Source: a virus
Taxonomy: Duplodnaviria; Heunggongvirae; Uroviricota; Caudoviricetes
Virus record (IMG/VR): IMGVR_UViG_2778261227_000013
Location: 1 to 16,267 of that record
Direction: 5' to 3' (one strand)
Length of the DNA stretch: 16,267 nt
Below are positions 1 through 16,267 of the stretch, one piece after another (positions within the stretch are counted from its first letter, which is position 1; each line of letters starts with the position of its first letter). Both the position numbers and the translations under genes were made by a program. The notes under the pieces were generated by a model. It worked only from the letters and a program-made list of their open reading frames with translations, searched no databases and was not told the DNA's origin.

Positions 1-1731
1 TTAGCCTGAGATATATTCGTCCGCTGCGTTCTTGATTATTTTTGACCTAACATTTTTAATGTACGGTATTTTTTTCAGATCATCCCTCGAACAGTGAACG
101 ATATCACCCACTTTAGGATAGGTTTCTTTTATTCGGTCGCATATTGCGTTACTAATTGACAAGCAACTAACCGGATCATCAAGAAGTTGTCCTACAATTG
201 ACCTTGTTGGTACAGGTGTCCCACACTTAGGACAAAACTTCGCATCTCCAGGTAACTCAGCGGAACAAGTTTGACACTCATCAGCTGATTCTTTCAATTT
301 TTCTAAAAAACGCTCTAATTCAGAATCTGCTGCGCCAAATTCTTTATAATCAGCGAGAGATAATAGTGTTATTATCTCCCCGAACTTATTAGATACGAAT
401 GCTTTTTCAGTGAAAAGTAATGATAAATTAACCATGTAGCGCTGACCCGATTTTCGATTAGACATCTTCACGGACCCTTGCTTGGAAAGAACACCAGAAT
501 AACAAAGCAAATCTAGAGACAATCTAAGATTTGGAGAAATAACGGGAGGAAGAACAAAAAAAGCAGATTGGGTTTGAGTCTTTTTCTCTCTGTTATTTTT
601 CAATCTAAGCTCAGGGATAATACACTCCCTAAGAATATCAAGTCCAATGCGAACATGGTGAGAATACTTAGGTAATCGTTTTGAAAGCCCTAAATGATAA
701 GGTAATAATTCTTGATTGACATAATCCTGAGTGCAAGTTAAAAGATCTCTTTCAGTATAACCTTTCTCATATACTTTATTAAATAAATGGAGAAATGCTC
801 TAGGGTTTCCGGATGAAAGATGAATACATTGATCTAGCAAATCACCTTTAGCCAATATTCTCTTTTTTGCTGCTCCTTGTGTGACCCGTTTATCTAATAG
901 ATCACGATATAAACGTCGTGTTCGTTCCCGCCCAATATTTCCAGTTTCGTATCCTCCGAGGTTTATCATCATGGCATCTTGACCAACTTCAAAATTTTTA
1001 CCATACGATGTAATTGACGGATATACAGCCGCCTTAACTGCAATTTTACCGCCATGAAGCAATTTAAATATTTCGAAGAATATTTCTTGCTGTTCTGGTA
1101 TAAAGGTATGAGCAGCCTCATCAAATAAAAAAACAATTCTATTAAGTTGGTATTCTTGAATTATCTCCTTGATGATGTCATTTACATAACTTATATCATT
1201 AACCTTATCTAAAAAATCCTCTCCAATTTCATTCAACAATTTATCTGAAGAAGGATCTCTTGATAACCTTTGAAGCAGATGAATTTTAGATTGTAGAGCA
1301 TCTTTCATCCCAGTTATAGTTTTAATCCCAAAAATTCTTTGAAATGGATCACTGCTATTATTGTCACGAATGACATCTAAAAATATCAACTTTTCGTACA
1401 AAGCTTGTAGTAACTTAGCGCTTACCCATATCTGAAATGCATTTTTATTGTCAGCTTTAACCCCTTCCAGCAAAGTACTGGTTTTGAAATTAACATATAC
1501 CCCCACAATCTTTTTAACAGGAAAATCACTATCTAATTCAGCTTCTGCCGCTCTTAGAAGCATAGACTTTCCAATTCCTCTGGCACCCTGAATCAGATGA
1601 GAGCCCGCTATTTTTAGTTTTGCTACAACATCTTTTTCAAACTCACCAAGAACAGCCAGTTGTTTGACCTGTTTCAACTCAAGATCTTCGGTACGTGCTG
1701 CATGTAATAACTCAGTGTCTAACATAGACAT
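1..1731 (-). CDS. P-loop NTPase with C-terminal zinc ribbon and RpoA alpha-CTD-like helix-hairpin-helix domain; candidate defence/cargo protein
   Basis: Complete 576-aa ORF with ATG at 1729-1731 and TAA at 1-3. Walker A GARGIGKS near residue 50, Walker B-like IVFLFDEAAH, and an SSGNPRAF sensor-like motif. C-terminal CQTCS...CPKCG four-cysteine ribbon, then a segment resembling the RNA polymerase alpha C-terminal domain (LSISNAICDRIKE...VGDIV...DDLKKIPYIKNVRSKII). One-nucleotide TAATG overlap with the upstream gene; GAGGT upstream. Very AT-rich. Confidence 0.8.
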   Translation of the reverse strand: MSMLDTELLHAARTEDLELKQVKQLAVLGEFEKDVVAKLKIAGSHLIQGARGIGKSMLLRAAEAELDSDFPVKKIVGVYVNFKTSTLLEGVKADNKNAFQIWVSAKLLQALYEKLIFLDVIRDNNSSDPFQRIFGIKTITGMKDALQSKIHLLQRLSRDPSSDKLLNEIGEDFLDKVNDISYVNDIIKEIIQEYQLNRIVFLFDEAAHTFIPEQQEIFFEIFKLLHGGKIAVKAAVYPSITSYGKNFEVGQDAMMINLGGYETGNIGRERTRRLYRDLLDKRVTQGAAKKRILAKGDLLDQCIHLSSGNPRAFLHLFNKVYEKGYTERDLLTCTQDYVNQELLPYHLGLSKRLPKYSHHVRIGLDILRECIIPELRLKNNREKKTQTQSAFFVLPPVISPNLRLSLDLLCYSGVLSKQGSVKMSNRKSGQRYMVNLSLLFTEKAFVSNKFGEIITLLSLADYKEFGAADSELERFLEKLKESADECQTCSAELPGDAKFCPKCGTPVPTRSIVGQLLDDPVSCLSISNAICDRIKETYPKVGDIVHCSRDDLKKIPYIKNVRSKIIKNAADEYISG

Positions 1732-2420
1732 TATAAAACTACCTCACTAGATTTAGGAAATGAAGATAGCACTTCTTTTCTTATCTTATGACGAACAATA
1801 TTGGAATTAATTATCATACCCAAAACAACCTCAGCCAGACCTATGAACCTCTCCCAATCTTCACTTTCAAAAGTGAACTTATTAGGCAAATCAGTTTCAA
1901 ATGAGGTTATTTTTCCATGAACGATATCACTTAATTGTCCATAAATTTTCTGTGCTCTTCTCATATCAATAACACATACTTTCCCTCCTATCTTCTCATT
2001 TTCTGTGAAGTAGTCTATATAGCCTTGATTTGTTATATGCTTCAACATATCACTGAAACTTAAGTCTTCATCATGATTTTTCCAAGAATATACAACATGA
2101 GGCATATCCCAAAGATAAATAGATGCGACACCTAGTTCCAAAACTCTCCTTAGAACAATATTAGCTGGTTTATCTATGGCACAGGCAGAAAGATATAAAG
2201 AAGATGACGTATCAGCAATAATCTCACTAAAAATTTTAATACAAACATCATGATGAACTGATGTTTTCTTTTTATTCAAAATTTCAGCAATCGTGTTAAG
2301 AGTGAAAATTGAGATAATTACTTTATCTAATTTTTTATCTTGTATGCCCTGCCATTCACGAAAGTTACTATTGAACTTATCGCTTAGCATATTAATTATC
2401 TCAGTAGGTGATTTGTTCAT
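1731..2420 (-). CDS. Hypothetical protein (229 aa), first gene of the AT-rich cargo operon; no recognisable motif
   Basis: ORF with ATG at 2418-2420 and AAGGGA upstream. Its stop overlaps the start of the downstream NTPase gene by one nucleotide, suggesting translational coupling. Same AT-rich composition as its partner. Confidence 0.7.
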   Translation of the reverse strand: MNKSPTEIINMLSDKFNSNFREWQGIQDKKLDKVIISIFTLNTIAEILNKKKTSVHHDVCIKIFSEIIADTSSSLYLSACAIDKPANIVLRRVLELGVASIYLWDMPHVVYSWKNHDEDLSFSDMLKHITNQGYIDYFTENEKIGGKVCVIDMRRAQKIYGQLSDIVHGKITSFETDLPNKFTFESEDWERFIGLAEVVLGMIINSNIVRHKIRKEVLSSFPKSSEVVL

Positions 2421-5765: not shown

Positions 5766-6346
5766 GCGCCTGTTTTCTCCTTTGCTACCCGGCGCTGACG
5801 TTTGCGCTTCTCATTCAGCGCCACCAGCCGCGTTTCTGCGTCCTGTTGTTCCTGTGGTGTCACCTCGCCGCACGGCTGGCCTTTCAGGTCGTAGCGTACC
5901 CCACCAGCCATTAAGGCGCGGTAATAGCGCGGACACTGCGCATAAGATGCCAGCGTCGCACGTAATGCCCCTGGCCCGAATGCCAGCCCCCTGACGGCGA
6001 GATCCTGCATCAGGTCGTCGAATACCCCCACCTTTAGCGGCTTCGGTGCTTCCCGGCTGAATAATTCTGGCCACAACTCAGTGAGGCGGTTAACGCGTCT
6101 GCGGTTTTTTCGCTGCCGTTTGGTCATATGCCGCCACGGTGTCGCCCCTGTGGGCTTCTGCTGCGCTTTCTGGTTACCGGGCATCACTTTATGCGCCGAT
6201 GTGGTTTTATCCTGCTGCTGCTGCTGCGCCGCCTTCGTCGTTTTCTGCGGCGTGCCGTAAATGCCTTTCGGTTTTCTGTTAATGGTCAGCTTAGTCATGC
6301 TTTGCCCCATCGTTTTTACTGATTGTTTCATATCCGGTACTTTCAT
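5762..6346 (-). CDS. ProQ/FinO-domain RNA-binding protein (194 aa; start uncertain)
   Basis: Segment LTELWPELF...PLKVGVFDDL...LRATLASYAQCPRYYRALMAGGVRYDLKGQPCGEVT parallels the ProQ N-terminal FinO domain (PLKIGIFQDL...RVDLDGNPCGEL) as recalled. Basic, Q-rich N-terminus. No good ribbon-binding site before the first ATG. Confidence 0.75.
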   Translation of the reverse strand: MKVPDMKQSVKTMGQSMTKLTINRKPKGIYGTPQKTTKAAQQQQQDKTTSAHKVMPGNQKAQQKPTGATPWRHMTKRQRKNRRRVNRLTELWPELFSREAPKPLKVGVFDDLMQDLAVRGLAFGPGALRATLASYAQCPRYYRALMAGGVRYDLKGQPCGEVTPQEQQDAETRLVALNEKRKRQRRVAKEKTGA

Positions 6347-6351
6347 CTTCT

Positions 6352-6637
6352 GGGTAGAGGGGTAGACGGAGGGTAGATAACAAAAAATAGTCCTCTACCC
6401 ACTTAACTTAATGAAAAAAAACAACTTTCACACATTAGGTAGAGGGGTAGACCGTAAAATAGAAAAGTTTGAAACTTACTTTCTTACAATCTGTGTTTTC
6501 CTCTCGCTGTATAAAAAGTTTTTTGAGCGGGGATGTTGTCTACCCCTCTACCCACTTCTCTGAAAGCCTTGTGCTACGAGGGATTCAGCGGGTAGACAAT
6601 AAAAAATCACCATCTACCCTGTGTCTACCCATCTACC
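6352..6637. repeat. Iteron array GGGTAGA(G/C/T) in direct and inverted copies with A-rich spacers; putative replication origin
   Basis: Direct copies at 6352, 6360, 6371, 6438, 6445 and 6590. Inverted copies at 6393, 6538, 6546, 6612, 6623 and 6631. A-rich spacers between clusters. Located immediately downstream of the primase/helicase gene. Confidence 0.75.
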
Positions 6638-6654
6638 TGTTACGGGTATTACTC

Positions 6655-8403
6655 TTATAAAAATTCCTCGGTTCTCTCCGTTTGTATAACGTTGGTTTGT
6701 ATTCGTCCTTTAAAACCTCTTGTCAGGTATTCAGCCCCATATTCTCTTGCTGCTGACTTCATGGCCTTACCAAAATCACCGACACTTAATATTTCTTCTT
6801 CCCCCATATACTCCATAAAGGCGAGATATAGTCTGTACAGGCTTGTACGCGGATTAAGATCAGTTAATCTCTTACCGCCTCCCATCATCATCCCATGCGG
6901 TTCATCAAGAAATGCAAGCGCCGCACATAACCCAATGACAGGATCAGTTTCCTGTTTTATTTTCAGAGCTTCGGCACCGTCGCGCTGCTCCAACAATAAT
7001 TCCCGTGCTTTTTCTGGATCGGAAAAGTTAGCCAGTAATCGACGAATAATGACAGGTATTTCCGCCGCTATCTTTTGCGGTAACTCTTTATCCTTTTCGG
7101 TCTCCCTTACAATATTATCGAACCGAAAAATTACACGTCGACGCGCAACGCCTCCGGCCCGTTCGGTGAATGTCATCGGCACGTTATTTGTTGCCAGCAC
7201 GACGGACCTGATAATTGTTGTGAAACGCTTTTCATATTTCGGGTTAATTTCAACTGGATCTCCACCCGTTATTTTTTTGATGCCGGATCCTTCACCTGTA
7301 TATTTCGGCTGGTCTGCCAGGACAATAAGACGACTTCCGACAACCTGCGCACGCCCGCCAGCATCATCAAGCGATGTCATTTCAGCGCTTACCGTGTTCT
7401 GTTTCCCTGCCAGAAGGGTGGCTATGTGCGTGATTGTGCTCTTGCCGCTCCCGCCTTCCCCTGTGGCCTCAATAAACATCTGCCAGTCGTACCGGTTCGC
7501 CATAATCATGTACAGCGCGGCGCATATACGCATCATCTTTCGCGGGTCTTTTCCTGCGGCGTGATCAAGCCATTTATGAAAGTTTGGCGCGTTGTCGCGG
7601 ATGTTCTCCCCTGGTACTGGTGGCGTGTACTCAATGCCGTTATGCGTGGTGATCCAGTTATCCGGCGAGTGCGGGGAAAATTCGCCAGTTTTCATGTCAA
7701 GCACGCCATTAGAGAACGGCAATAAATCACCTGACGGTTCCCCCATTGGCCTGGCCATAACTTTTAAAGCATCCACTGCATTACTTATTGCTCTCCGACT
7801 AAACGATGTTCCGTTTTCTTCGTAAATAGCCACCATTTCACGACTAAGATCCAGTGTGCTTACCGGAACCCAAAAATCATCGCGCCAGACGTGGACAACC
7901 TCACTCTCCTGATTCATTGCTACATCCTGAAATCGTTCAGCTAAAAGTTTTGCCCTTTGGCTGTCCGCCATTCTGGAAAGAGATATTTTGTGTTTTTTCT
8001 CGGTCCTTCCTGACAGAATTTCTCCGCGCTCAGCCTGTTCGCGGATCCGTTGCAGGTAGTCGCGCCAGTTCTCCGGTTCCTGGTCGGTGATGCCTTTGTA
8101 TAATTTCGCCTCCTGTACGCCAGCCAGCGCCAGCTTTTCAGCGATAGCATTGATCTGGATTGGCTCGATCTCCCCCGCGAGATAGACACGCGCAAAGCGG
8201 CGTTTCTCGTCAATAATGCGGATATTCGCCAGGTCTGCCAGTTGCTTTGGTCCCAGATAAACAGGTGGCACGTTATCGCAGTGTTTTCGTCCTTCGCTTT
8301 CAATCCAGTGTTGGGCATGGGCGTAAGCATCCGTCCCGGCAAAAATGATTACCTCAGTGAATTTATCCTTCGGCTGATATTTCAAACTCGGTGCGTTTTT
8401 CAC
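6655..8403 (-). CDS. P4-type primase/helicase-like replication protein with D5-like NTPase (582 aa)
   Basis: Walker A GEGGSGKST and Walker B-like LIVLAD within a long ORF, followed directly by the iteron array. Family assignment is from recalled resemblance to phage/plasmid P4-family primase C-terminal regions. Start overlaps the upstream gene by 4 nt. Confidence 0.8.
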   Translation of the reverse strand: MKNAPSLKYQPKDKFTEVIIFAGTDAYAHAQHWIESEGRKHCDNVPPVYLGPKQLADLANIRIIDEKRRFARVYLAGEIEPIQINAIAEKLALAGVQEAKLYKGITDQEPENWRDYLQRIREQAERGEILSGRTEKKHKISLSRMADSQRAKLLAERFQDVAMNQESEVVHVWRDDFWVPVSTLDLSREMVAIYEENGTSFSRRAISNAVDALKVMARPMGEPSGDLLPFSNGVLDMKTGEFSPHSPDNWITTHNGIEYTPPVPGENIRDNAPNFHKWLDHAAGKDPRKMMRICAALYMIMANRYDWQMFIEATGEGGSGKSTITHIATLLAGKQNTVSAEMTSLDDAGGRAQVVGSRLIVLADQPKYTGEGSGIKKITGGDPVEINPKYEKRFTTIIRSVVLATNNVPMTFTERAGGVARRRVIFRFDNIVRETEKDKELPQKIAAEIPVIIRRLLANFSDPEKARELLLEQRDGAEALKIKQETDPVIGLCAALAFLDEPHGMMMGGGKRLTDLNPRTSLYRLYLAFMEYMGEEEILSVGDFGKAMKSAAREYGAEYLTRGFKGRIQTNVIQTERTEEFL

Positions 8404-9121: not shown

Positions 9122-9479
9122 GTTTACCCCCCTGAATGACCTGATAACCGCAACTGGTCAGCAATTCCATAAATTCCGGCAATGTGCCGAAACAGTAATC
9201 ATCACACAGACGTTCGCGGGATACTTCAACGCCGTTTTCGTAGTGACTCACCATACACCCGGTAAAACGCAGATCATCATCGTGATGGCACGTTGACGGC
9301 TTAATCAGTCGCGCACGCTCCGCCAGTGCCAGGAATGCTTCAACGCTTCCGGCAATTGCACCATCCGGCAGGTGATAATTACTTACTACGCGTCCATTCT
9401 CTACATTGACCAGTAGCTGCCCGGTAAATTTCTCATCAAACTGAATGCTGTTAAGTTCAGAAATAGCCGAATTATGCAT
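9114..9479 (-). CDS. Hypothetical protein (about 121 aa)
   Basis: AGGAGGTG upstream of the ATG at 9479 (MHNSAISELN...). The track's longer ORF start at 9497 is less likely. Confidence 0.6.
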   Translation of the reverse strand: MHNSAISELNSIQFDEKFTGQLLVNVENGRVVSNYHLPDGAIAGSVEAFLALAERARLIKPSTCHHDDDLRFTGCMVSHYENGVEVSRERLCDDYCFGTLPEFMELLTSCGYQVIQGGKHA

Positions 9480-9696
9480 GGTGCACCTCCTGCACATCAG
9501 CCATGATAATTTTTCCGGCCTTATCCAGTGCCTGATCGGCTTTTAGCTGCACAAATGCTAAATAATGGGAGATGCATTCTGATTCTCTGACTGCGTGTTT
9601 ATGCGCCACACCAGCGATAGCTGAAATCTCAATAAGTGAATCCATCAGCGTTTTGATAGCGTCTACCGCTGCATCAGGCCATGTTACATTACACAT
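9472..9696 (-). CDS. Hypothetical small protein (74 aa)
   Basis: AGGAGGTGGAG upstream of the ATG at 9696; 8-nt ATGTGTAA overlap with the upstream gene. Confidence 0.6.
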   Translation of the reverse strand: MCNVTWPDAAVDAIKTLMDSLIEISAIAGVAHKHAVRESECISHYLAFVQLKADQALDKAGKIIMADVQEVHHA

Positions 9697-10054
9697 GCTC
9701 CACCTCCTGGCGAATACGGGCAGCGAATACCATCACGCAGCCATCAGGGGATTGCTGGCGTGCTTCCTGTTCGCTGGTGGCCTCGATGTGAATTACGCGC
9801 GGTTGTGCTGTGCTCAGGGCGATAAAACGCCAGATAAAATTGTTCTCGCATTTCTGAATAAACAGCGTGTTTTCTTCGCGCCCTTTCCATGTTGCCGAGA
9901 TATAGCCCATGTCATTGAGCATCTCGCAGGCATCAACCAGCGTATCAGCAGCTACGTGTACAGTGTTTTTACCGTCAGCTATGCAATCACGGTGCACCGC
10001 CAGGAAGGTGTATATAAATTTAGGGTGAGTTTGGGTATGCTGTGTTCCAGCCAT
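9689..10054 (-). CDS. Hypothetical protein (121 aa), first gene of the leftward operon
   Basis: ATG at 10054 preceded by GAGGT. It is the C-terminal part of the 510-aa track ORF, whose upstream portion is judged non-coding or shadow. Confidence 0.6.
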   Translation of the reverse strand: MAGTQHTQTHPKFIYTFLAVHRDCIADGKNTVHVAADTLVDACEMLNDMGYISATWKGREENTLFIQKCENNFIWRFIALSTAQPRVIHIEATSEQEARQQSPDGCVMVFAARIRQEVEHV

Positions 10055-10143
10055 AATCGTTACCTCATTTAACGGTTTGGTTAGACGCCCCGCTACTGCC
10101 GCAAACAGTTCGGGGCGTTGTCGTTTACATCCTCTTACTGAGG

Positions 10144-10219
10144 TGTGATTTAAATTAAATTTAACTGAATCACAGGTCAAGTATTTTTTGTGATTCTTTT
10201 TTGTGTATACTGAATCACA
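10144..10219. promoter_or_regulatory. Divergent promoter/operator region with two 31-bp palindromes TGTGATT-N17-AATCACA
   Basis: Palindrome 1 at 10144-10174 and palindrome 2 at 10189-10219. Palindrome 2 encloses a TATACT -10-like hexamer (10206-10211) for the rightward gene. A leftward TTGACC -35-like hexamer (complement of 10175-10180) lies beside palindrome 1. Confidence 0.6.
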
Positions 10220-10241
10220 TCTTTTGTTTAGGAGAATGCAC

Positions 10242-10547
10242 ATGGCAAAAAACACTATCAACGACAAATCAAAACAGATTTCAATTCGTATCCCACATGA
10301 TGCTTTTGAAGGCATGGAATCCGTAAAACTGGACGGTGAAAGCAACGCCGGATTCATAGTAACCGCCATGCGCGGTGAGATCGCCCGCCGCCAGGCAGAA
10401 GGAAGCGGAGAAAATCCCCTGGTTTCTTCGCTCGATGCGCTGGCGCAGGTGGAAAAAATCGGAGTCAAAGCTGCCGAGGAGATCGGGCAGCTCGTCACCG
10501 TCGCACGTGAAGAACTCCAGCGCCGCAAGGCCAAAGAATCAGAATAA
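10242..10547 (+). CDS. Ribbon-helix-helix-like (Arc/MetJ/CopG-type) DNA-binding regulator (101 aa), tentative
   Basis: AGGAG 8 nt upstream of the ATG at 10242. N-terminal KQISIRIPHDAFEGMESV...NAGFIVTAMRGEIARRQ has the strand-helix-helix pattern; the C-terminus is charged and coiled-coil-like. Confidence 0.6.
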   Translation: MAKNTINDKSKQISIRIPHDAFEGMESVKLDGESNAGFIVTAMRGEIARRQAEGSGENPLVSSLDALAQVEKIGVKAAEEIGQLVTVAREELQRRKAKESE

Positions 10548-10604
10548 TAACTATCATCGCCGTGGTGTGAGGAACTCCGGCGCATTGCTTTACAGGTACA
10601 CAGA

Positions 10605-10799
10605 ATGACCAACAAAGAATCAACCAATACACCATCACCGGCACGGAAAAGACGGCGCAGAAAGATAGAGCATGAATCAGAAAGATTCGCGCCATGTGCT
10701 TTTGCCCTTGAGCAATTCCTTAAAGAGTACAGGCGCACAAAAATGGGATCGCATACCTGGAAAACATCGCGGCATGGCAATGTTAAAGAGCATGAATAG
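10605..10799 (+). CDS. Possible small basic protein (64 aa), hypothetical
   Basis: ORF downstream of and co-oriented with the RHH-like gene; weak AGGT upstream. Composition is plausible (K/R/E-rich), whereas the opposite-strand frame here is Cys/Ser-rich. Confidence 0.3.
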   Translation: MTNKESTNTPSPARKRRRRKIEHESERFAPCAFALEQFLKEYRRTKMGSHTWKTSRHGNVKEHE

Positions 10800-10829
10800 C
10801 CCACCAGCAAGCCAGCACACTGATCACAT

Positions 10830-11221
10830 TGCCCACCAGCCGCAAATCTGGCATTGTTGGCAATGTGTTCAAGTGTGTAGCTTTCCCACTGGTGGCCCTC
10901 TGCAGTCGCCTTTGTTTTATCCAGAACGAAATCAGACATCAGATTGATCAGCACCTGGTGACCTGACAAAATCGCATCAGTCGCGCCACCAGCAAAATTT
11001 TTTGCTTTCCGGACAGCGTGGCTAACGGCATTTTGCAGCAAAATATTCTGCATTTCTGGCGTACTGTAGTAACAGTGATCAGCGCCTTCACTCTGTGCGA
11101 CCACAACGCTATAATCTGCCTCGTAGACAGTAAGCAATATGGCGCAGTAGGCTATTCGTTCACAAAGGCGCTCCGGCAACGGGGCGCTTTCTCTTTTTGT
11201 AACGGTCAGAGCGTTACACAT
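10830..11221 (-). CDS. Candidate gene with unresolved 3' end (5' part of the 510-aa track ORF); possibly a remnant
   Basis: ATG at 11221 preceded by GGAGGA, with an 8-nt ATGTGTAA overlap to the antirepressor gene stop. The first roughly 130 codons look protein-like, but there is no in-frame stop until 9689. The 3' coordinate is approximate. Confidence 0.3.
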
Positions 11222-12014
11222 GGCTGTTTTCCTCCATGCGACGGGCTAACCAACGCTGCGAAAGACGAATTAATTCAGCCTTCCGCTGGTGGTAGTCCTG
11301 GCCTAACTCAATCAGCGTGATATTGCTCTGCTCAAGGTAAGAAAGGTGCTCAAGCTGCAACGTGCTCATGTGGTCGCGTGGTTCGCCTGTAATGCCGTTC
11401 GCCAGTGCCCACTGTTTTGCAGTCATGCCACCCAGCACGATACGCGCCAGCATGCTCGCTTCCGTGGTGTAGTGGTGCTGGAGTGTGTTTTTACCCAGTT
11501 CAGCCCGGTACGCCTCCAGCGCGGCACACATTGGCTTAAAGTAGCTGGCAACTGTGATACGGGCTTTCAGTTCCCGGCGTAACGCTGCGGAACGAACAGG
11601 CGCAACCTTGTGTAGCTCCTCCTCGCATTTGATAAAGTACTGGCGAACGGCGCGGCCCTGTTCGGTACGTTCGACCATCGCCAGTTCTTTCGCCATGTTC
11701 ACTGTGATGATGTACTCAAGAGCGGTTTGCTGGCGAGATTTTGCGCTCACCGGATCGGGTCGGCTCAAATATTCAACAACCTCATAATCCACGCCTTCCG
11801 TGAACCCGTATTCTTCAATGCGCCCCTTGATCCACGAACGGAAAACGCGCCCTACACCTAACGCCTTATGTAACGCTCTGGCGCTAACAATAGTGGTTTC
11901 ACTCCCGCCAATAACGCCGGAAATAATCGGGATAATTTCGCCGAAATTTTGCAGATTCTGGTTTTCAGTCCGAACGAAGCCCCGCCCCTGTACGGGCGTT
12001 TTTGGAAATTTCAT
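11214..12014 (-). CDS. Phage antirepressor-like protein (AntA N-terminal / KilAC-type C-terminal domains), 266 aa
   Basis: N-terminal ...TIVSARALHKALGVGRVFRSWIKGRIEEYGFTEGVDYEV... resembles the AntA/Bro-N type antirepressor signature as recalled. AGGAG 7 nt upstream of the ATG at 12014. Confidence 0.7.
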   Translation of the reverse strand: MKFPKTPVQGRGFVRTENQNLQNFGEIIPIISGVIGGSETTIVSARALHKALGVGRVFRSWIKGRIEEYGFTEGVDYEVVEYLSRPDPVSAKSRQQTALEYIITVNMAKELAMVERTEQGRAVRQYFIKCEEELHKVAPVRSAALRRELKARITVASYFKPMCAALEAYRAELGKNTLQHHYTTEASMLARIVLGGMTAKQWALANGITGEPRDHMSTLQLEHLSYLEQSNITLIELGQDYHQRKAELIRLSQRWLARRMEENSHV

Positions 12015-12091
12015 AAAAACTCCTGCTATCGAATTAAGTTACTTTTATTTGCTGGTGGATAGCTGGGGGCAATAGCCCCGTAGCCATTTAA

Positions 12092-12289
12092 TCAGGTAGC
12101 TGTTCCGCGTGATTCCGCAATACGCTGATTAATCCACTCGTCAATTTCACTCTCAACGAAAGCAATAGCTCGCGAGCCAATTTTAACTGATGCAGGAAAT
12201 TTACCTTGCCCCATAAGGCGATAAATCCATGCCTTGCTATATCCAGTTCTACGCTGAACTTCTGTTAAACGAATAAGCGTATTTGACAT
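12092..12289 (-). CDS. alpA: AlpA-family phage transcriptional regulator (65 aa)
   Basis: MSNTLIRLTEVQRRTGYSKAWIYRLMGQGKFPASVKIGSRAIAFVESEIDEWI matches the AlpA/MerR-like HTH family signature (YRL...GKFP..K.G.RA.A..ESE...WI). GAGGT upstream of the ATG at 12289. Confidence 0.85.
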   Translation of the reverse strand: MSNTLIRLTEVQRRTGYSKAWIYRLMGQGKFPASVKIGSRAIAFVESEIDEWINQRIAESRGTAT

Positions 12290-12358
12290 ATATTTACCTC
12301 ATAACGTCTACTCAATTTGACGAGGTAATCATGGCACAGAAATAACGAATATTTTCAT

Positions 12359-12502
12359 ACCCTCAGGCCTAATGGTTACCGGAAGGAAATTAACCCTAAG
12401 GGTGATGGTAATCGGGAGGAAATCTACCCTAAGGGTGATGGTAAAATTGACGGGGAAGATAAAAAAATACCCTCAGGGTAACAGTAAATCATCCTCAGGG
12501 TA
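12359..12502. promoter_or_regulatory. Upstream region of alpA with five ACCCT(A/C)AGGG palindromic boxes, including a 31-bp tandem duplication
   Basis: Boxes at 12359, 12393, 12426, 12469 and 12492. Copies at 12381-12411 and 12414-12444 are near-identical (GGA[A/G]GGAAAT[T/C][A/T]ACCCTAAGGGTGATGGTAA). Confidence 0.55.
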
Positions 12503-12516
12503 TGCGGTATGGTGCG

Positions 12517-13314
12517 TTAATCCGGCTTTGCGTTCTTTTGGCTGTTGTCTCGGTTAATAGGGCAGGCAGTCCTCTCTATGAGCGTTGCAAGTGCATTACT
12601 TGCCCCCCACTGCTTAAGCTCCCTGGTTATCGCTTCTTGATTTCCCCTGGTGGCAAAATCATTTTCTGGATCGTAATTGGCCCACTCTCTGTTTCTAATC
12701 TCAATAGCCTTAGCTAATGGGTCTTTATCCCAGTATTTATATAAGTGTATCGGGCGCTCTTGCTCTAACTGCTCTATCCTTGCCCTTAACTCTGCGTTTT
12801 CTTTTTCCAGCATTGCGATTTGGGATAATAAATCATCCTCTGTACGCAACTCTTTCTTTTCAATATCGCGTCCTTGTGCCTCGTCATTTTCAGAAGAGTT
12901 AGCGCCTTCCAGCTTCGTTAACGCGTCAAGGACATCGGGAAAAATTGCGAAAATTTCACCCCTTATAAATCCAATGTTCTCAAATTCGGGATCTTCCCAA
13001 TAACCGGACACCAGAAAACCATTTTCATCCCTCTCACCAGGTAAACAACCACGTTTCCGAACCGCATTCAGATTTCTATAAAGAACATCATAATCAAATT
13101 CATCCCGATACGGGTTACAAAAAGATTCCAACAGCTTAAATTCATTTACTGTGTACAGGCGGATATGTTCTCCGCTTATTCTCCTGAGTATCCAAGTTAT
13201 GACATCTGAAACATCATAATCATCACCAGCGACCTTAAGCACGACCTCAAGAAATTCACGTAAAGAAATAAAATCTTTTTTGTATTCGTTTAATTCGGCA
13301 TGAATATCAATCAT
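12517..13314 (-). CDS. Hypothetical protein (about 265 aa) with central coiled-coil; AT-rich cargo-like gene between int and alpA
   Basis: The track ORF starts at a GTG at 13320; an ATG at 13314 preceded by GAGGTG is more likely. Coiled-coil-like segment LSQIAMLEKENAELRARIEQLEQE. Visibly AT-rich relative to its neighbours. Confidence 0.65.
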   Translation of the reverse strand: MIDIHAELNEYKKDFISLREFLEVVLKVAGDDYDVSDVITWILRRISGEHIRLYTVNEFKLLESFCNPYRDEFDYDVLYRNLNAVRKRGCLPGERDENGFLVSGYWEDPEFENIGFIRGEIFAIFPDVLDALTKLEGANSSENDEAQGRDIEKKELRTEDDLLSQIAMLEKENAELRARIEQLEQERPIHLYKYWDKDPLAKAIEIRNREWANYDPENDFATRGNQEAITRELKQWGASNALATLIERTACPINRDNSQKNAKPD

Positions 13315-13442
13315 ACGCACACCTCAGCGTCCTCTACTGTAGTGGCTGTACCAGTCCGTCGAGGTGTACGGATTTTCGGGAGCGACCCTAGACACAGCCT
13401 TTTCTTTCGTCGCTCAAAGTCTACTACTGTATACGCAACCAG

Positions 13443-14657
13443 TCATCCACATTTTCCGAACTTGCCATGCACCACGTTACCGCCATGTTCGAGCGAATCC
13501 ATATAGTCGGCGTACCACTGGAGCATCTCGCGCCGCCCGTCCAGATATTGCGCATGATTGTACGTGCCACGAATTGAGTTCTTATCAACGTGTGCAAGCT
13601 GCGTTTCTATCCACGCGGTGTTATAGCCCTGCTCATGTAAAATCGTGCTCATGGTGTGCCGGAATCCATGACCAGTAACCTTTCCGTTATAGCCGATGCG
13701 TTTAAATACTTGGTTTATGCTAGCCTCGCTCATTGTTTTCCTTGGATCATTACGGCCGGGAAACATAAGCGGATAATTACCAGTTAATTCTTTAATCTGC
13801 CCAATAAGAGAAAGAGCCTGCTTAGACAAAGGCACCACATGAGGGCGACGCATTTTCATCCGTGAAGCAGGTATCTCCCAGATAGCCTTGTTGAGATCGA
13901 TTTCATCCCATAATGCACCGCGCAGTTCGCCAGTTCGCAAACCAGTGATAATCAGTAGACGAGCCGCCATAACAACCAATGCACTTCCTGAGTAACTGGA
14001 CAATGCCTTGAAAAAATCAGGCAATTCTTTGGCTGTGAGGAAAGGATAATGATTAGATTCATGGCCTTGCATCGCGCTAGTAAGATCTGGGGCAGGGTTA
14101 TACTCTGCGCGACCAGTGACTATTGCATAGCGGAAAACTTCCCCGCACCGCTGCCTCACTTTTTTGGCTTTTTCTGTAGCACCGCGCCCCTCGATGCGTC
14201 GCAGCACATTCAGAAGTTCAAGTGGTTTGATTTCGGCAATTGGTTTTTTGCCAATGTAAGGGAACACATCTTTGTTGAAGGCTTCGAGGATATCTGAAGC
14301 ATAACCAGCAGACCATTTTTTTAATTTGCTGCTGTGCCACTCAAGGGCAATATCTTTGAAGGTATTGTTTAACTGCGTTTCCCGGGCAATCTTTTCCTCT
14401 CGTTTCGCTTCCATCGGATCGATACCCCCAGCGATACCCCTTTTAGCTTCTTCACGTTTTGCACGAGCATCAGCCAAGGTAACTTCAGGATACACACCTA
14501 GTGCTAACAGCTTCTCTTTACCAGCTACACGATATTTAAAGCGCCAGTATTTTCCTCCACTAGGTTTTACCAGGAGATACAGACCACCACCATCAGCCAG
14601 CTTGTAAGCCTTCTCTTTTGGCTTGGCAGTGTCTATTTGACGGGCATTGAGTTTCAC
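13443..14657 (-). CDS. int: Tyrosine recombinase / phage integrase (P4-type, with N-terminal arm-binding domain), 404 aa
   Basis: N-terminus AKPKEKAYKLADGGGLYLLVKPSGGKYWRFKY is typical of P4-like integrases. C-terminal catalytic region contains HGFRHT and a terminal Y (GTYNHAQY). GTG start at 14657 with GGAGGT upstream. Directly adjacent to the tRNA 3' end. Confidence 0.93.
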   Translation of the reverse strand: MKLNARQIDTAKPKEKAYKLADGGGLYLLVKPSGGKYWRFKYRVAGKEKLLALGVYPEVTLADARAKREEAKRGIAGGIDPMEAKREEKIARETQLNNTFKDIALEWHSSKLKKWSAGYASDILEAFNKDVFPYIGKKPIAEIKPLELLNVLRRIEGRGATEKAKKVRQRCGEVFRYAIVTGRAEYNPAPDLTSAMQGHESNHYPFLTAKELPDFFKALSSYSGSALVVMAARLLIITGLRTGELRGALWDEIDLNKAIWEIPASRMKMRRPHVVPLSKQALSLIGQIKELTGNYPLMFPGRNDPRKTMSEASINQVFKRIGYNGKVTGHGFRHTMSTILHEQGYNTAWIETQLAHVDKNSIRGTYNHAQYLDGRREMLQWYADYMDSLEHGGNVVHGKFGKCG

Positions 14658-14823: not shown

Positions 14824-14899
14824 TGGTGCCGATAATAGGAGTCGAACCTACGACCTTCGCATTACGAATGCGCTGCTCTACCAACTGAGCTATATCGGC
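14824..14899 (-). tRNA. thrW: tRNA-Thr (anticodon CGU)
   Basis: The reverse complement reads GCCGATATAGCTCAGTTGGTAGAGCAGCGCATTCGTAATGCGAAGGTCGTAGGTTCGACTCCTATTATCGGCACCA: a 76-nt cloverleaf-compatible sequence with a CGT anticodon and encoded CCA end. Confidence 0.96.
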
Positions 14900-15013: not shown

Positions 15014-16267
15014 TTACGCACGAATGGTGTAATCACCAATGCCGATCCACTTGTAAGTGGTCAGTGCTTCCAGCCCCATTGGGCCACGCGCGTGGAGTTT
15101 TTGTGTGCTTACCGCCACTTCCGCACCCAGACCAAACTGGCCGCCGTCGGTAAAACGCGTAGAGGCGTTAACGTAAACAGCGGACGAATCCACTTCGTTA
15201 ACAAAACGCTGGGCGTTGCGCATATCGCGGGTCAGGATCGCATCGGAGTGTTGTGTGCCGTGTTCACGAATATGGGCGATGGCATCGTCAAGATCGCTGA
15301 CGATTTTGACGTTCAAATCTAATGACAGAAACTCATCGTCATACTCTTCGGCTTTAACAGCAACCACCTTCGCAGGGCCTGCCTGCAACTGCGCCAGTGC
15401 AGCTGCATCTGCGTGTAATGTCACGCCGCTTTCCGCCATTTGTTTGCTTAATGCGGGCAGGAAGCTATCGGCGATGTTTTTATTCACCAGCAACGTTTCA
15501 ACCGTATTACATGTGCTCGGACGCTGAGTTTTCGCGTTGACGATCACTTTTAATGCTTCAGCGATCTCTACACTTTCATCAACGTAAATATGGCATACGC
15601 CTATACCACCTGTGATCACCGGGATTGTCGACTGTTCACGGCACAGTTTATGCAAACCAGCGCCACCACGCGGGATCAGCATGTCGATGTATTTATCCAT
15701 ACGCAGCATTTCACTGACCAGCGCACGGTCAGGATTATCAATCGCCTGCACGGCACCCGCCGGTAAGCCGCAGGATTTCAGGGCGTCCTGAATCACCGCC
15801 ACCGTTGCAGCGTTAGTGCGACACGTTTCTTTGCCACCGCGCAGGATCACCGCATTACCGGTTTTCAGGCACAGCGAAGCGACATCAACCGTCACGTTCG
15901 GGCGCGCTTCATAAATCACGCCAATAACCCCCAGCGGTACGCGACGACGCTCAAGACGCAGGCCGCTGTCCAGTACGCTGCCATCGATTACCTGCCCCAC
16001 CGGATCGGCGAGGTTACACACCTGGCGCACATCATCGGCAATGCCTTTCAGCCGTGCGGGCGTCAGTGCCAGACGGTCAAGCATCGCTTCGCCAAGGCCA
16101 TTGGCACGCGCGTCAGCAACATCCTGGGCGTTAGCGTTGAGGATGATTTCGCTTTGTGCTTCCAGTTCATCGGCGATTTTTTCCAGCACGCGATTTTTTT
16201 CGCGGCTGGAGAGTTGCGCTAATTTATACGAGGCTTGCTTCGCGGCAATGCCCATTTGTTCCAGCAT
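15014..16267 (-). CDS. proA: Gamma-glutamyl phosphate reductase (glutamate-5-semialdehyde dehydrogenase)
   Basis: Complete 417-aa ORF with ATG at 16265-16267 and TAA at 15014-15016. Translation [40 protein letters not shown]... matches enterobacterial ProA as recalled. Confidence 0.96.

What the first reader, a model, noticed from the sequence alone, without database searches (positions are those of the whole stretch)
12517..13314. Second AT-rich cargo-like gene wedged between the integrase and alpA
This 265-aa protein is visibly AT-rich compared with its neighbours, has a coiled-coil core, and matches no family I recognise. The integrase-proximal position is another recognised variable site in integrative elements. 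It may be an independent single-gene defence or exclusion factor, or the element's master regulator.
Basis: inference. Interest (0 to 1): 0.55.

Follow-up and report, generated by a model that had tools for sequence, protein, structure and literature searches.

The report
Candidate DNA-binding gatekeeper of satellite alpA
The gene is real and belongs to no described family. It is probably not random cargo: it looks like a modular DNA-binding regulator that always sits just upstream of the phage-satellite master switch alpA, next to its own array of binding sites, which makes it a testable candidate for how such satellites stay silent until a helper phage arrives.

Summary

It has a swappable N-terminal domain, a short junction motif, a disordered linker, a coiled coil and a conserved 70-aa C-terminal helical domain ending ACPIxR.

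In about 60 distinct loci from Escherichia, Salmonella, Pantoea, Yersinia, Xenorhabdus, Photorhabdus, Orbaceae and uncultured contigs, a gene with this C-domain lies directly upstream of an alpA-like gene on the same strand. It is followed by an array of ACCCTnAGGGT-type palindromes; the window has five.

The array tracks the C-domain only. It is kept where AlpA is 34-44% identical, and it is missing where Int (92-97%), AntA (98%) or AlpA (76-81%) are kept but another protein fills the slot.

N-domains shuffle between two unrelated C-domains and can be split off as a separate protein. That protein carries the SSB C-terminal tail (EPPMDFDDDIPF).

Best reading: a dimeric, operator-binding gatekeeper of alpA with an exchangeable sensor module, working like Stl but not a member of that family. 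Binding, the sign of regulation and the ligand are all inferred.

The parts
14824..14899 (-). tRNA-Thr(CGT), the integration site of the satellite; proA lies beyond it.
   Evidence: ARAGORN and Rfam tRNA. proA is the ORF at 15014-16267; relatives at the same site are annotated tRNA-Thr followed by proA.
13443..14657 (-). Tyrosine integrase of the satellite.
   Evidence: Pfam Arm-DNA-bind_3, Phage_int_M and Phage_integrase.
13331..13398 (-). Rfam 'int-alpA RNA' motif (RF02996), ending 16 nt before the start codon of the gene under study. It is probably the leader or left boundary of the slot gene.
   Evidence: 45.5 bits against a gathering score of 35.8. The same motif ends 12-21 nt before the annotated or likeliest start codon of the slot gene, whatever protein that gene encodes, in 12 related loci (L002, L003, L008, L009, L011, L012, L015, L017, L023, L024, L049 and the window). 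It is absent where there is no slot gene (L018). DNA homology between islands with different slot genes stops at this motif.
13015..13314 (-). Gene X, N-terminal domain (aa 1-100). This is the exchangeable module and the putative sensor.
   Evidence: AF2 pLDDT is about 85-90. L002 has 100% identical AlpA and 97% AntA, but its X is only 34% identical. DNA homology is lost exactly over 12745-13293. The same N-domain type is fused to an unrelated C-domain in P0072, P0076, P0085, P0090 and P0103.
12931..13005 (-). Gene X, junction motif GYWEDPEFENIGFIRGEIFAIFPDV (aa 104-128). The motif is shared by fused proteins of both C-domain types, and it forms the N-terminus of 'protein 2' in split relatives.
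   Evidence: Alignment A1. Split relatives begin MAGWG..DHWSAPxFDxYGFRRSEL.
12757..12840 (-). Gene X, coiled coil (aa 159-186), a probable dimerisation element. It follows a disordered linker (aa 140-157).
   Evidence: A single AF2 helix at 159-186 and pLDDT below 50 for 140-157. Weak bZIP_2/DivIC matches.
12550..12756 (-). Gene X, conserved C-terminal domain 'type 1' (aa 187-255: RPIxL..DDPLxxAIxIRNxEW...AIExVACPIxR). It is the inferred sequence-specific DNA-binding domain.
   Evidence: It is always at the C-terminus, behind varied N-termini, in most of the 70 cluster representatives found. The invariant residues are D, R, W, I, E, C, P and R. AF2 modelled alone gives pLDDT 89.8, with an N-terminal helix carried over from the coiled coil followed by four helices. 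It has no structural relative.
12359..12501 (.). Array of five ACCCTnAGGGT palindromes between the stop codon of X and alpA, the putative operators. They lie at 12359-69, 12393-403, 12426-36, 12469-79 and 12491-501, with centres 34, 33, 43 and 22 bp apart.
   Evidence: All five matches in the 16-kb window fall within these 143 bp. ACCCT/AGGGT pentamers average 5.2 per 200 nt downstream of type-1 genes, against 0.23 in the background. The array is absent from islands with another slot protein.
12092..12289 (-). alpA, the published master activator of Gram-negative PICIs and the presumed target of the gate.
   Evidence: Pfam Phage_AlpA, E = 2.4e-19. Its role is described in PMC6092414 and PMC11773190.

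Best explanation
X is a modular regulator of the satellite's integration and regulation zone.

- **Binding (inferred):** its coiled coil makes it a dimer. Its conserved C-terminal 'ACPIxR' domain binds the phased ACCCTnAGGGT palindromes that lie between its own stop codon and alpA.
- **Gatekeeping (inferred):** by occupying this array it gates alpA, the master activator. Most likely it represses the alpA promoter and/or blocks read-through from the int-X transcript.
- **Sensing (speculative):** the exchangeable N-terminal module is proposed to be the input. It would bind a helper-phage or replication-associated protein, and that binding would open the gate. Swapping the module would re-target the island to other helpers.

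**What is shown and what is not.**
- Shown: the architecture, the fixed gene order, the association of the array with the C-domain, the domain shuffling, and the split and fused forms.
- Inferred: DNA binding and the link to alpA.
- Speculative: repression rather than activation, and what the ligand is.
For: 1. **Fixed position.** A gene with the type-1 C-domain always lies directly upstream of an alpA-like gene on the same strand, and usually just after int. This holds in E. coli, Salmonella, Pantoea, Yersinia, Xenorhabdus, Photorhabdus, Orbaceae and IMG/VR contigs of satellite size.
2. **Cognate array.** 60 distinct type-1 loci average 5.2 ACCCT/AGGGT pentamers in the 200 nt after the stop codon. 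Background is 0.23, and only 0.1% of background windows reach 4. In the window, the five sites are the only matches in 16 kb.
3. **The array tracks the C-domain and nothing else.**
   - It is kept in L003 and L023, where AlpA is 34-44% and Int 36% identical to the window's. L012, where AlpA is barely detectable (29%) and Int is 39%, keeps a related palindrome, TACTATnATAGTA, instead.
   - It is absent in L016, L017 and L018 (Int 92-97%, AlpA 76-81%) and in L015 (AntA 98%, AlpA 78%). These hold other slot proteins or none.
   - L015 carries a different palindrome, ACCGCAATTGCGGT, twice.
4. **Related repeats in distant subfamilies.** These include TACTATnATAGTA, CCCTATAT and CTATCACCCT.
5. **Site spacing** of 22, 33-34 and 43 bp is close to whole helical turns. 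Copy number varies from 4 to 6 between near-identical islands.
6. **The array is not the replication origin.** A separate set of GGGTAGA iterons lies just downstream of the primase gene.
7. **Modularity.** At least four N-domain types combine with two unrelated C-domains; hhalign gives 0.3% probability that the C-domains are related. The N-domain cassette is flanked by conserved DNA.
8. **Split relatives** encode the N-module and the C-module as adjacent genes. This is Rosetta-stone evidence that the two parts work together.
9. **There is an unfilled role.** Published work says that helper phage, not SOS, switches alpA on, and that a repressor in Gram-negative PICIs is 'unclear' (PMC6092414).
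Against: - By my own residue count from the translation, the C-domain has roughly equal numbers of acidic and basic residues, so it is not notably basic.
- The putative operators lie downstream of the gene, so physical linkage contributes to the association.
- The gene is not universal. L018, and by the paper's gene numbering EcCICFT073, have no slot gene. EcCICFT073 is still helper-inducible.
- No sigma-70 promoter was found by the scan, so the position of the sites relative to the alpA promoter is unknown.
- Activation cannot be told apart from repression.
Confidence: 0.5

Rival explanations
1. X is accessory cargo: a single-gene (or, in split relatives, two-gene) anti-phage or exclusion factor sitting in a variable hotspot between int and alpA. 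Its N-domain acts on a phage or host protein. The palindromes serve only for autoregulation or for anchoring the protein on the island.
For: - The slot is variable. It can hold type-1 proteins, type-2 proteins, DUF6387, a 251-aa protein, or nothing.
- The N-domain is AT-rich (38.8% GC) and is swapped between otherwise identical islands.
- Split relatives carry an exact SSB C-terminal tail, which could act as a decoy for proteins that bind SSB.
- EcCIMP1 shows an unexplained superinfection immunity (PMC11773190).
Against: - No PADLOC match for X or for any alternative slot protein.
- The pairing with alpA is conserved across genera and includes a cognate DNA array, which ordinary cargo does not show.
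- The island's real low-GC cargo lies at its far end (31-36% GC).
- Autoregulatory sites would be expected upstream of the gene, not downstream.
Confidence: 0.2
2. X is an architectural or directionality cofactor for site-specific recombination. It would bind the array to help Int and AlpA assemble the excision complex, or to control int.
For: - It lies in the 'integration zone' between int and alpA (PMC10111431).
- AlpA relatives can act as excisionases.
- Phased repeated sites resemble the arm sites of an intasome.
Against: - The array is about 2.3 kb from the tRNA attachment site (parts list). Arm sites normally lie within a few hundred bases of the core (my knowledge).
- The array does not follow the integrase. 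Int is 92-97% identical in islands that lack the array.
Confidence: 0.1
3. X is a centromere-binding or maintenance protein. The palindrome array would be a parS-like site that stabilises the excised, plasmid-like form of the satellite.
For: - A dimeric coiled-coil protein lies next to a cluster of palindromes.
- P4-type satellites can persist as plasmids (my knowledge).
Against: - No partition ATPase is encoded nearby.
- The strict adjacency to alpA is not explained.
- The replication origin and its iterons lie elsewhere.
Confidence: 0.05

Closest known systems
Stl / Rpr master repressors of Gram-positive PICIs (SaPIs)
   Same: Both are satellite-encoded, are not linked to SOS, and lie next to int at the entry to the satellite's lytic programme. 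In Stl a DNA-binding part is combined with a variable part that captures a helper-phage protein, so different alleles give different helper specificity (PMC6092414, PMC6695447). The proposed logic of X is the same.
   Different: - X has no detectable HTH or Cro/CI domain.
- X is transcribed in the same direction as its target rather than divergently.
- Its operators lie downstream of its own gene.
- Its conserved DNA-side module is C-terminal and its variable module N-terminal.
- Binding of a phage protein has not been tested.
AlpA-centred regulation of Gram-negative PICIs (EcCICFT073, EcCIMP1)
   Same: The island type and gene order are the same: int, alpA, Bro/Ant zone, primase, origin and cargo. 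alpA is the helper-induced, self-activating master switch.
   Different: In the published models alpA follows int directly (EcCICFT073) or follows an unrelated small ORF (EcCIMP1_002). No protein gate upstream of alpA has been described, and a repressor was called 'unclear'.
Bro-N / KilA-N / AntA network of domain-swapping phage and satellite regulators
   Same: Both show extensive shuffling of N- and C-terminal modules between phage-related regulators. One such network occupies the zone next to alpA in these islands (PMC10111431).
   Different: None of the X modules matches Bro-N, KilA-N, AntA, Rha or their known C-domains. X sits upstream of alpA, not in the Bro zone.
Rfam RF02996 'int-alpA RNA' motif
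   Same: The motif is present at 13331-13398, between int and alpA as its name says.
   Different: Rfam files it as an sRNA gene. Here, and in 11 related loci, it ends 12-21 nt before the annotated or likeliest start of a protein-coding slot gene, of three unrelated kinds. It therefore looks like a leader or boundary element of that gene.
SSB C-terminal tip (DDDIPF) interaction motif
   Same: 'Protein 1' of split relatives ends in EPPMDFDDDIPF, identical to the last 12 residues of E. coli SSB. The motif is the known docking peptide for SSB partner proteins (PMC5872125).
   Different: The carrier has no OB fold and is not an SSB. The fused protein in this window lacks the motif, keeping at most a degenerate 'ERDENGF' at the equivalent place.

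Membership tests
Gram-negative PICI-type phage satellite (the element that carries the gene) | Integrase next to a specific attachment site (tRNA), followed in the same direction by alpA. | tested here: met
   tRNA-Thr 14824-14899, int 13443-14657 and alpA 12092-12289 are all on the minus strand.
Gram-negative PICI-type phage satellite (the element that carries the gene) | Primase/replicase gene followed by an iteron-bearing origin, and no phage tail or lysis genes. | tested here: met
   D5_N/DUF5906 primase at 6655-8403. GGGTAGA iterons at 6339-6640. The annotation of the near-identical island shows no tail genes inside it.
Gram-negative PICI-type phage satellite (the element that carries the gene) | Induction and packaging by a helper phage. 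| not testable with these tools
   This needs phage induction and transduction assays.
Stl/Rpr-type PICI master repressor | Cro/CI-type helix-turn-helix DNA-binding domain. | tested here: not met
Stl/Rpr-type PICI master repressor | Transcribed divergently from the genes it represses, with operators in the divergent intergenic region. | tested here: not met
   X, the array and alpA are co-directional, and the array lies downstream of X.
Stl/Rpr-type PICI master repressor | Repression is lifted by binding a helper-phage protein, and deletion gives constitutive excision and replication. | not testable with these tools
   This needs genetics and interaction assays.
Known anti-phage defence systems (PADLOC-DB 2.0) | A match to a model of a known or candidate defence protein. 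| tested here: not met
   No families at E <= 0.1 for X. None for five alternative slot proteins or two distant homologues.
Excisionase / recombination directionality factor (AlpA, Xis, Vis) | Small winged-helix protein of the Phage_AlpA/HTH_17 type. | tested here: not met
   These families match the neighbouring 65-aa AlpA, not X.
Bro-N/KilA-N/AntA domain-swapping regulators | Presence of one of the network's defining domains. | tested here: not met
   There is no such Pfam or PHROG match in X or in 16 relatives and neighbouring slot or split-module proteins. AntA matches the next gene but one.
DUF6387 (another protein family found upstream of alpA) | A match to Pfam PF19924. | tested here: not met
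   X has no match. The slot protein of L017 matches at 3.7e-38.
New 'ACPIxR' C-domain family (defined here) | (1) A C-terminal motif DDPLxxAIxIRNxEW...AIExVACPIxR preceded by a coiled coil. (2) A gene directly upstream of alpA. (3) ACCCT-type repeats after the stop codon. | tested here: met
   for the motif, 42 and 86 for the position, and 17, 71, 95 and 99 for the repeats.

The most novel reading that the evidence does not exclude
X-family proteins are the missing helper-sensing gate of a large class of Gram-negative phage satellites.

- They would form a new, fold-unassigned DNA-binding module that sits on an operator array in front of alpA.
- That module would be coupled to interchangeable sensor modules.
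- In the split relatives the sensor subunit carries a perfect SSB C-terminal tail. The gate could therefore be opened by competition from exposed SSB tails, or by phage proteins that bind SSB. That would let the satellite read 'phage DNA replication in progress' rather than one specific phage protein.
Probability: 0.25. Interest if true: 0.85.

Novelty: new variant of a known kind. Interest (0 to 1): 0.62.

Why it matters
**The open question.** How Gram-negative PICIs stay silent, and how a helper phage switches alpA on, is not settled in the papers available here. PMC6092414 calls a repressor 'unclear' and had not yet identified the inducer.

**What this analysis offers.**
- A concrete candidate that can be tested at the bench: an uncharacterised protein family plus its presumed operator.
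- A natural experiment. Islands with identical alpA, antA and operators differ only in the N-domain, which should reveal what the module senses.
- A possible role for the orphan Rfam motif 'int-alpA'. It may be the leader of this slot gene rather than a free sRNA.
- An unexpected SSB-tail mimic on satellite proteins.

**If it holds.** The module would be useful for predicting satellite-helper pairs and for building inducible PICI-based tools.

Tried and rejected
- **Family searches.** Pfam, NCBIfam, PHROGs and PADLOC on X, its relatives and alternative slot proteins gave only coiled-coil noise, plus DUF6387 for one alternative.
- **Structure searches.**
  - Foldseek against viral structures gave nothing below E = 0.5.
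  - The afdb50 library was not available.
  - Profile searches of PDB sequences gave nothing.
- **Phage records.** tblastn found no match.
- **Other proteins as binders of the palindromes.** AlpA, Int and AntA were each rejected because their identity does not track the array.
- **The array as replication origin.** Rejected: separate GGGTAGA iterons lie next to the primase gene.
- **The array as RNA hairpins or terminators.** Only one site is followed by a T-run and scored as a weak terminator. Arms of 5 nt around a 1-nt centre cannot make stable hairpins (inference).
- **A common origin for the two C-domain types.** Rejected: hhalign probability 0.3%.
- **YfjH of CP4-57 as a counterpart.** It lies between intA and alpA but on the opposite strand, so I did not pursue it.
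- **EcCIMP1_002 as a homologue.** The paper describes it as a protein about one-tenth the size of UvrB and 'UvrB-like', so it is unrelated.
- **First genome-collection scan.** A 9-sequence alignment then gave only 5 loci.
- **The alpA-leader hairpin.** The predicted fold is no better than shuffled sequence (z = -0.73). My regular-expression survey was too strict to test covariation.

Full report
**1. Setting**

The window is E. coli chromosome. Identical DNA occurs in strain EC11 and many other strains. From right to left on the minus strand it carries:
- proA (15014-16267);
- tRNA-Thr(CGT) (14824-14899);
- a tyrosine integrase (13443-14657);
- the ORF under study (12517-13314);
- alpA (12092-12289);
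- an AntA-family protein (11214-12014);
- small genes;
- a D5-type primase (6655-8403);
- low-GC cargo (1-2420).

A cluster of GGGTAGA iterons just downstream of the primase gene (6339-6640) marks the replication origin. This is the layout published for Gram-negative phage-inducible chromosomal islands (PICIs). In those islands AlpA is the helper-induced, self-activating master switch (PMC6092414; PMC11773190; PMC10111431).

**2.

- The ORF is real: 265 aa from the ATG at 13314, annotated in RefSeq as WP_000565286.1 'hypothetical protein'.
- It is present in 153 of 5426 complete E. coli genomes.
- It has diverged homologues (43 clusters; 70 representatives).
- GC is 41.5%, lower than int (47.2%) and antA (53.3%). 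It is similar to alpA (42.9%) and well above the true cargo (31-36%).
- A coiled coil at aa 159-186 is supported by AF2 and by weak bZIP/DivIC matches.
- No family, defence model, phage record or structure gives an informative match.

**3. Architecture**

Alignment and AF2 give five pieces:
- N-domain, aa 1-100;
- a junction motif, GYWEDPEFENIGFIRGEIFAIFPDV (aa 104-128);
- a disordered linker (aa 140-157);
- a coiled coil (aa 159-186);
- a 70-aa helical C-domain, RPIxL..DDPLxxAIxIRNxEW...AIExVACPIxR.

The C-domain models at pLDDT 89.8 on its own. It is always at the very C-terminus, behind quite different N-termini.

**4. Position is conserved**

Wherever I could read the context, a gene with this C-domain lies directly upstream of an alpA-like gene on the same strand, and usually just after int. 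This holds for:
- E. coli (L002) and Salmonella (L003);
- an unidentified metagenome organism with AntA next door (L005);
- Pantoea, Xenorhabdus, Photorhabdus and Orbaceae (L008-L012);
- Yersinia (L024) and a metagenome contig (L023);
- dozens of satellite-sized IMG/VR contigs.

**5. A cognate DNA array**

Between the stop codon of X and alpA the window has five ACCCTnAGGGT palindromes (12359-12501). They are the only matches in 16 kb, and their centres are 34, 33, 43 and 22 bp apart.

Across 60 distinct type-1 loci, ACCCT/AGGGT pentamers average 5.2 in the 200 nt after the stop codon. Background is 0.23, and only 0.1% of 2038 background windows reach 4. Distant subfamilies carry related repeats: TACTATnATAGTA, CCCTATAT and CTATCACCCT. 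Copy number varies from 4 to 6 among near-identical E. coli islands.

**6. What the array follows**

| Locus | Int identity to window | AlpA identity | AntA identity | Slot gene | ACCCTnAGGGT array |
|---|---|---|---|---|---|
| L003 / L023 | 36% | 34-44% | no match | type-1 C-domain | present |
| L012 | 39% | about 29% (only) | 48% | type-1 C-domain | replaced by TACTATnATAGTA |
| L016 | 92% | 76% | no match | type-2 C-domain | absent |
| L017 | 96% | 79% | 58% | DUF6387 | absent |
| L018 | 97% | 81% | 58% | none | absent |
| L015 | 66% | 78% | 98% | unrelated 251-aa protein | absent; ACCGCAATTGCGGT twice instead |

The type-1 C-domain is therefore the only protein feature that co-varies with the array. 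From this I infer that it binds the array. Linkage alone is unlikely to explain the pattern, because the motif persists where the surrounding intergenic DNA has no detectable similarity. Direct binding is still unproven.

**7. Modularity**

- L002 has 100% identical AlpA and 97% identical AntA, but its X is only 34% identical. DNA homology with the window stops at 13294, about seven codons into X and just past the RNA motif. It resumes at 12744, inside the C-domain.
- The X-type N-domain is also fused to an unrelated C-domain, 'type 2' (FAGKDTALxLIAGLAIALE..GGKYxRGxKLNKS), in P0072, P0076, P0085, P0090 and P0103. Other N-domain types likewise pair with either C-domain (L016, L020).
- The two C-domain types are unrelated: hhalign probability 0.3%.

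**8. Split forms and an SSB tail**

In L008, L012, L023, L024, L048-L054 and L068 the module is two adjacent genes.
- Protein 1 is the N-domain plus a proline-rich linker. In its clearest forms it ends ...EPPMDFDDDIPF, identical to the last 12 residues of E. coli SSB.
- DDDIPF is the SSB docking peptide for partner proteins (PMC5872125).
- Protein 2 starts 11-19 nt later with the junction motif (MAGWG..DHWSAPxFDxYGFRRSEL). It continues into the coiled coil and the C-domain.
- P0085 keeps an internal 'EPDDIPFGHDEW', which looks like a fusion scar.

The window protein is the fused form and has no such tail. Having both fused and split forms argues that the N- and C-modules act together. The role of the tail is unexplained. 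It could be a tether to protein 2, a bait for proteins that bind SSB, or a decoy.

**9. The RNA motif**

Rfam RF02996 'int-alpA RNA' matches 13331-13398 at 45.5 bits, ending 16 nt before the start codon of X. The same motif ends 12-21 nt before the annotated or likeliest start of the slot gene in 11 other loci. In those loci the gene encodes fused X, split protein 1, DUF6387, or the 251-aa protein. L018, which has no slot gene, lacks the motif, and so do L016 and L020. Homology between islands with different slot genes ends at this motif. It behaves as the leader or left boundary of the slot gene rather than as an independent sRNA. This is an inference.

**10. Mechanism proposed**

X dimerises through the coiled coil. 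It occupies the phased operator array between its own gene and alpA, and so gates alpA. I favour repression, or a roadblock to read-through from int-X, for two reasons:
- alpA is a self-activating switch that must be kept off;
- the gate is encoded immediately upstream of what it guards.

The N-module would receive the signal, and exchanging it would change helper specificity. This works like Stl of SaPIs, but X fails the structural and topological criteria for that family: no HTH, co-directional transcription and downstream operators.

Points against the proposal:
- no recognisable DNA-binding fold;
- a C-domain that is not notably basic (my count from the translation);
- no promoter found by the scan;
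- islands without any slot gene exist, and EcCICFT073 is one of them yet is helper-inducible.

X is therefore an added layer, not a universal requirement.

**11. Rivals**

- Hotspot cargo or a defence factor: 0.2.
- A recombination cofactor: 0.1.
- A partition protein: 0.05.

Each is weighed in the Rival explanations section.

**12. Verdict**

The 'cargo/defence' reading is not supported. The 'regulator' reading is supported by comparative evidence only. The family is undescribed in the libraries and papers searched. It would be a new variant of the satellite master-regulator theme.

Noticed in passing
L008, L012, L048-L054, L068 (for example L049 3438-3758); weaker in L023 and L024: In split relatives, the first protein after the int-alpA RNA motif ends in ...EPPMDFDDDIPF. 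This is identical to the C-terminal tip of E. coli SSB, yet the protein has no OB fold. Synonymous sites differ from ssb, so it is the peptide that is conserved, not recently captured DNA.
   Followed up: partly
window 13331-13398 (-): The Rfam 'int-alpA RNA' (RF02996) is filed as an sRNA. Here it ends 12-21 nt before the likeliest start of whichever protein gene fills the int-alpA slot, across three unrelated protein kinds. It is missing where the slot is empty. It may be a cis-acting leader.
   Followed up: partly
window 12294-12328 (-): The alpA leader can form a hairpin (UUACCUCGU ... AUGAGGUAA) that pairs with the alpA Shine-Dalgarno sequence. Relatives keep it as ACCTCGTAA...TTACGAGGT, with only one-sided (G-U) changes. 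The fold energy is no better than shuffles (z = -0.73). It might silence read-through transcripts.
   Followed up: partly
window 6339-6640: There are many GGGTAGA(G/C) iterons in both orientations around an AT-rich spacer, directly downstream of the primase gene. This is the probable replication origin of the satellite.
   Followed up: partly
window 9400-12600: No C4/isrK immunity RNA is detectable, even at E <= 0.1. Close relatives (L002, L003, L012, L016-L018, L024, L049) all have one downstream of the Ant/Bro genes. The near-identical island in EC11 is annotated with a truncated pseudogene here, so this island may have lost its P4-type immunity RNA.
   Followed up: partly
window 9689-11221 (-): The 510-aa ORF has no family match and a low-complexity look. 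RefSeq annotates small genes (Icd-like, YlcI/YnfO on the other strand) and a pseudogene over the equivalent stretch of strain EC11 instead. It is probably not a gene.
   Followed up: no
window 1-2420 (-): This is very low-GC cargo (31-36%). It comprises a 576-aa ORC/CDC6-like P-loop ATPase with a C-terminal zinc ribbon, overlapping by one base with a 229-aa protein that has a faint DUF5677 match. It looks like a candidate two-gene defence system. PADLOC gives only weak hits (E about 0.01).
   Followed up: no
L017 3383-4264, L019 3268-4119, L021 3439-4284: DUF6387 proteins also sit directly upstream of alpA-like genes. This includes islands where alpA is followed by two tyrosine recombinases rather than preceded by int. 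'A protein upstream of alpA' may therefore be a general arrangement.
   Followed up: no
L015 3813-4568: The 251-aa slot protein that RefSeq names 'protein kinase' has no Pfam kinase match. It has its own coiled coil and is followed by two ACCGCAATTGCGGT palindromes. The name looks unfounded.
   Followed up: partly
L029, L034, L043, L013 compared with window 12359-12501: Near-identical E. coli islands differ in the number of palindrome units (4 to 6). They gain or lose a 33-bp repeat unit.
   Followed up: no
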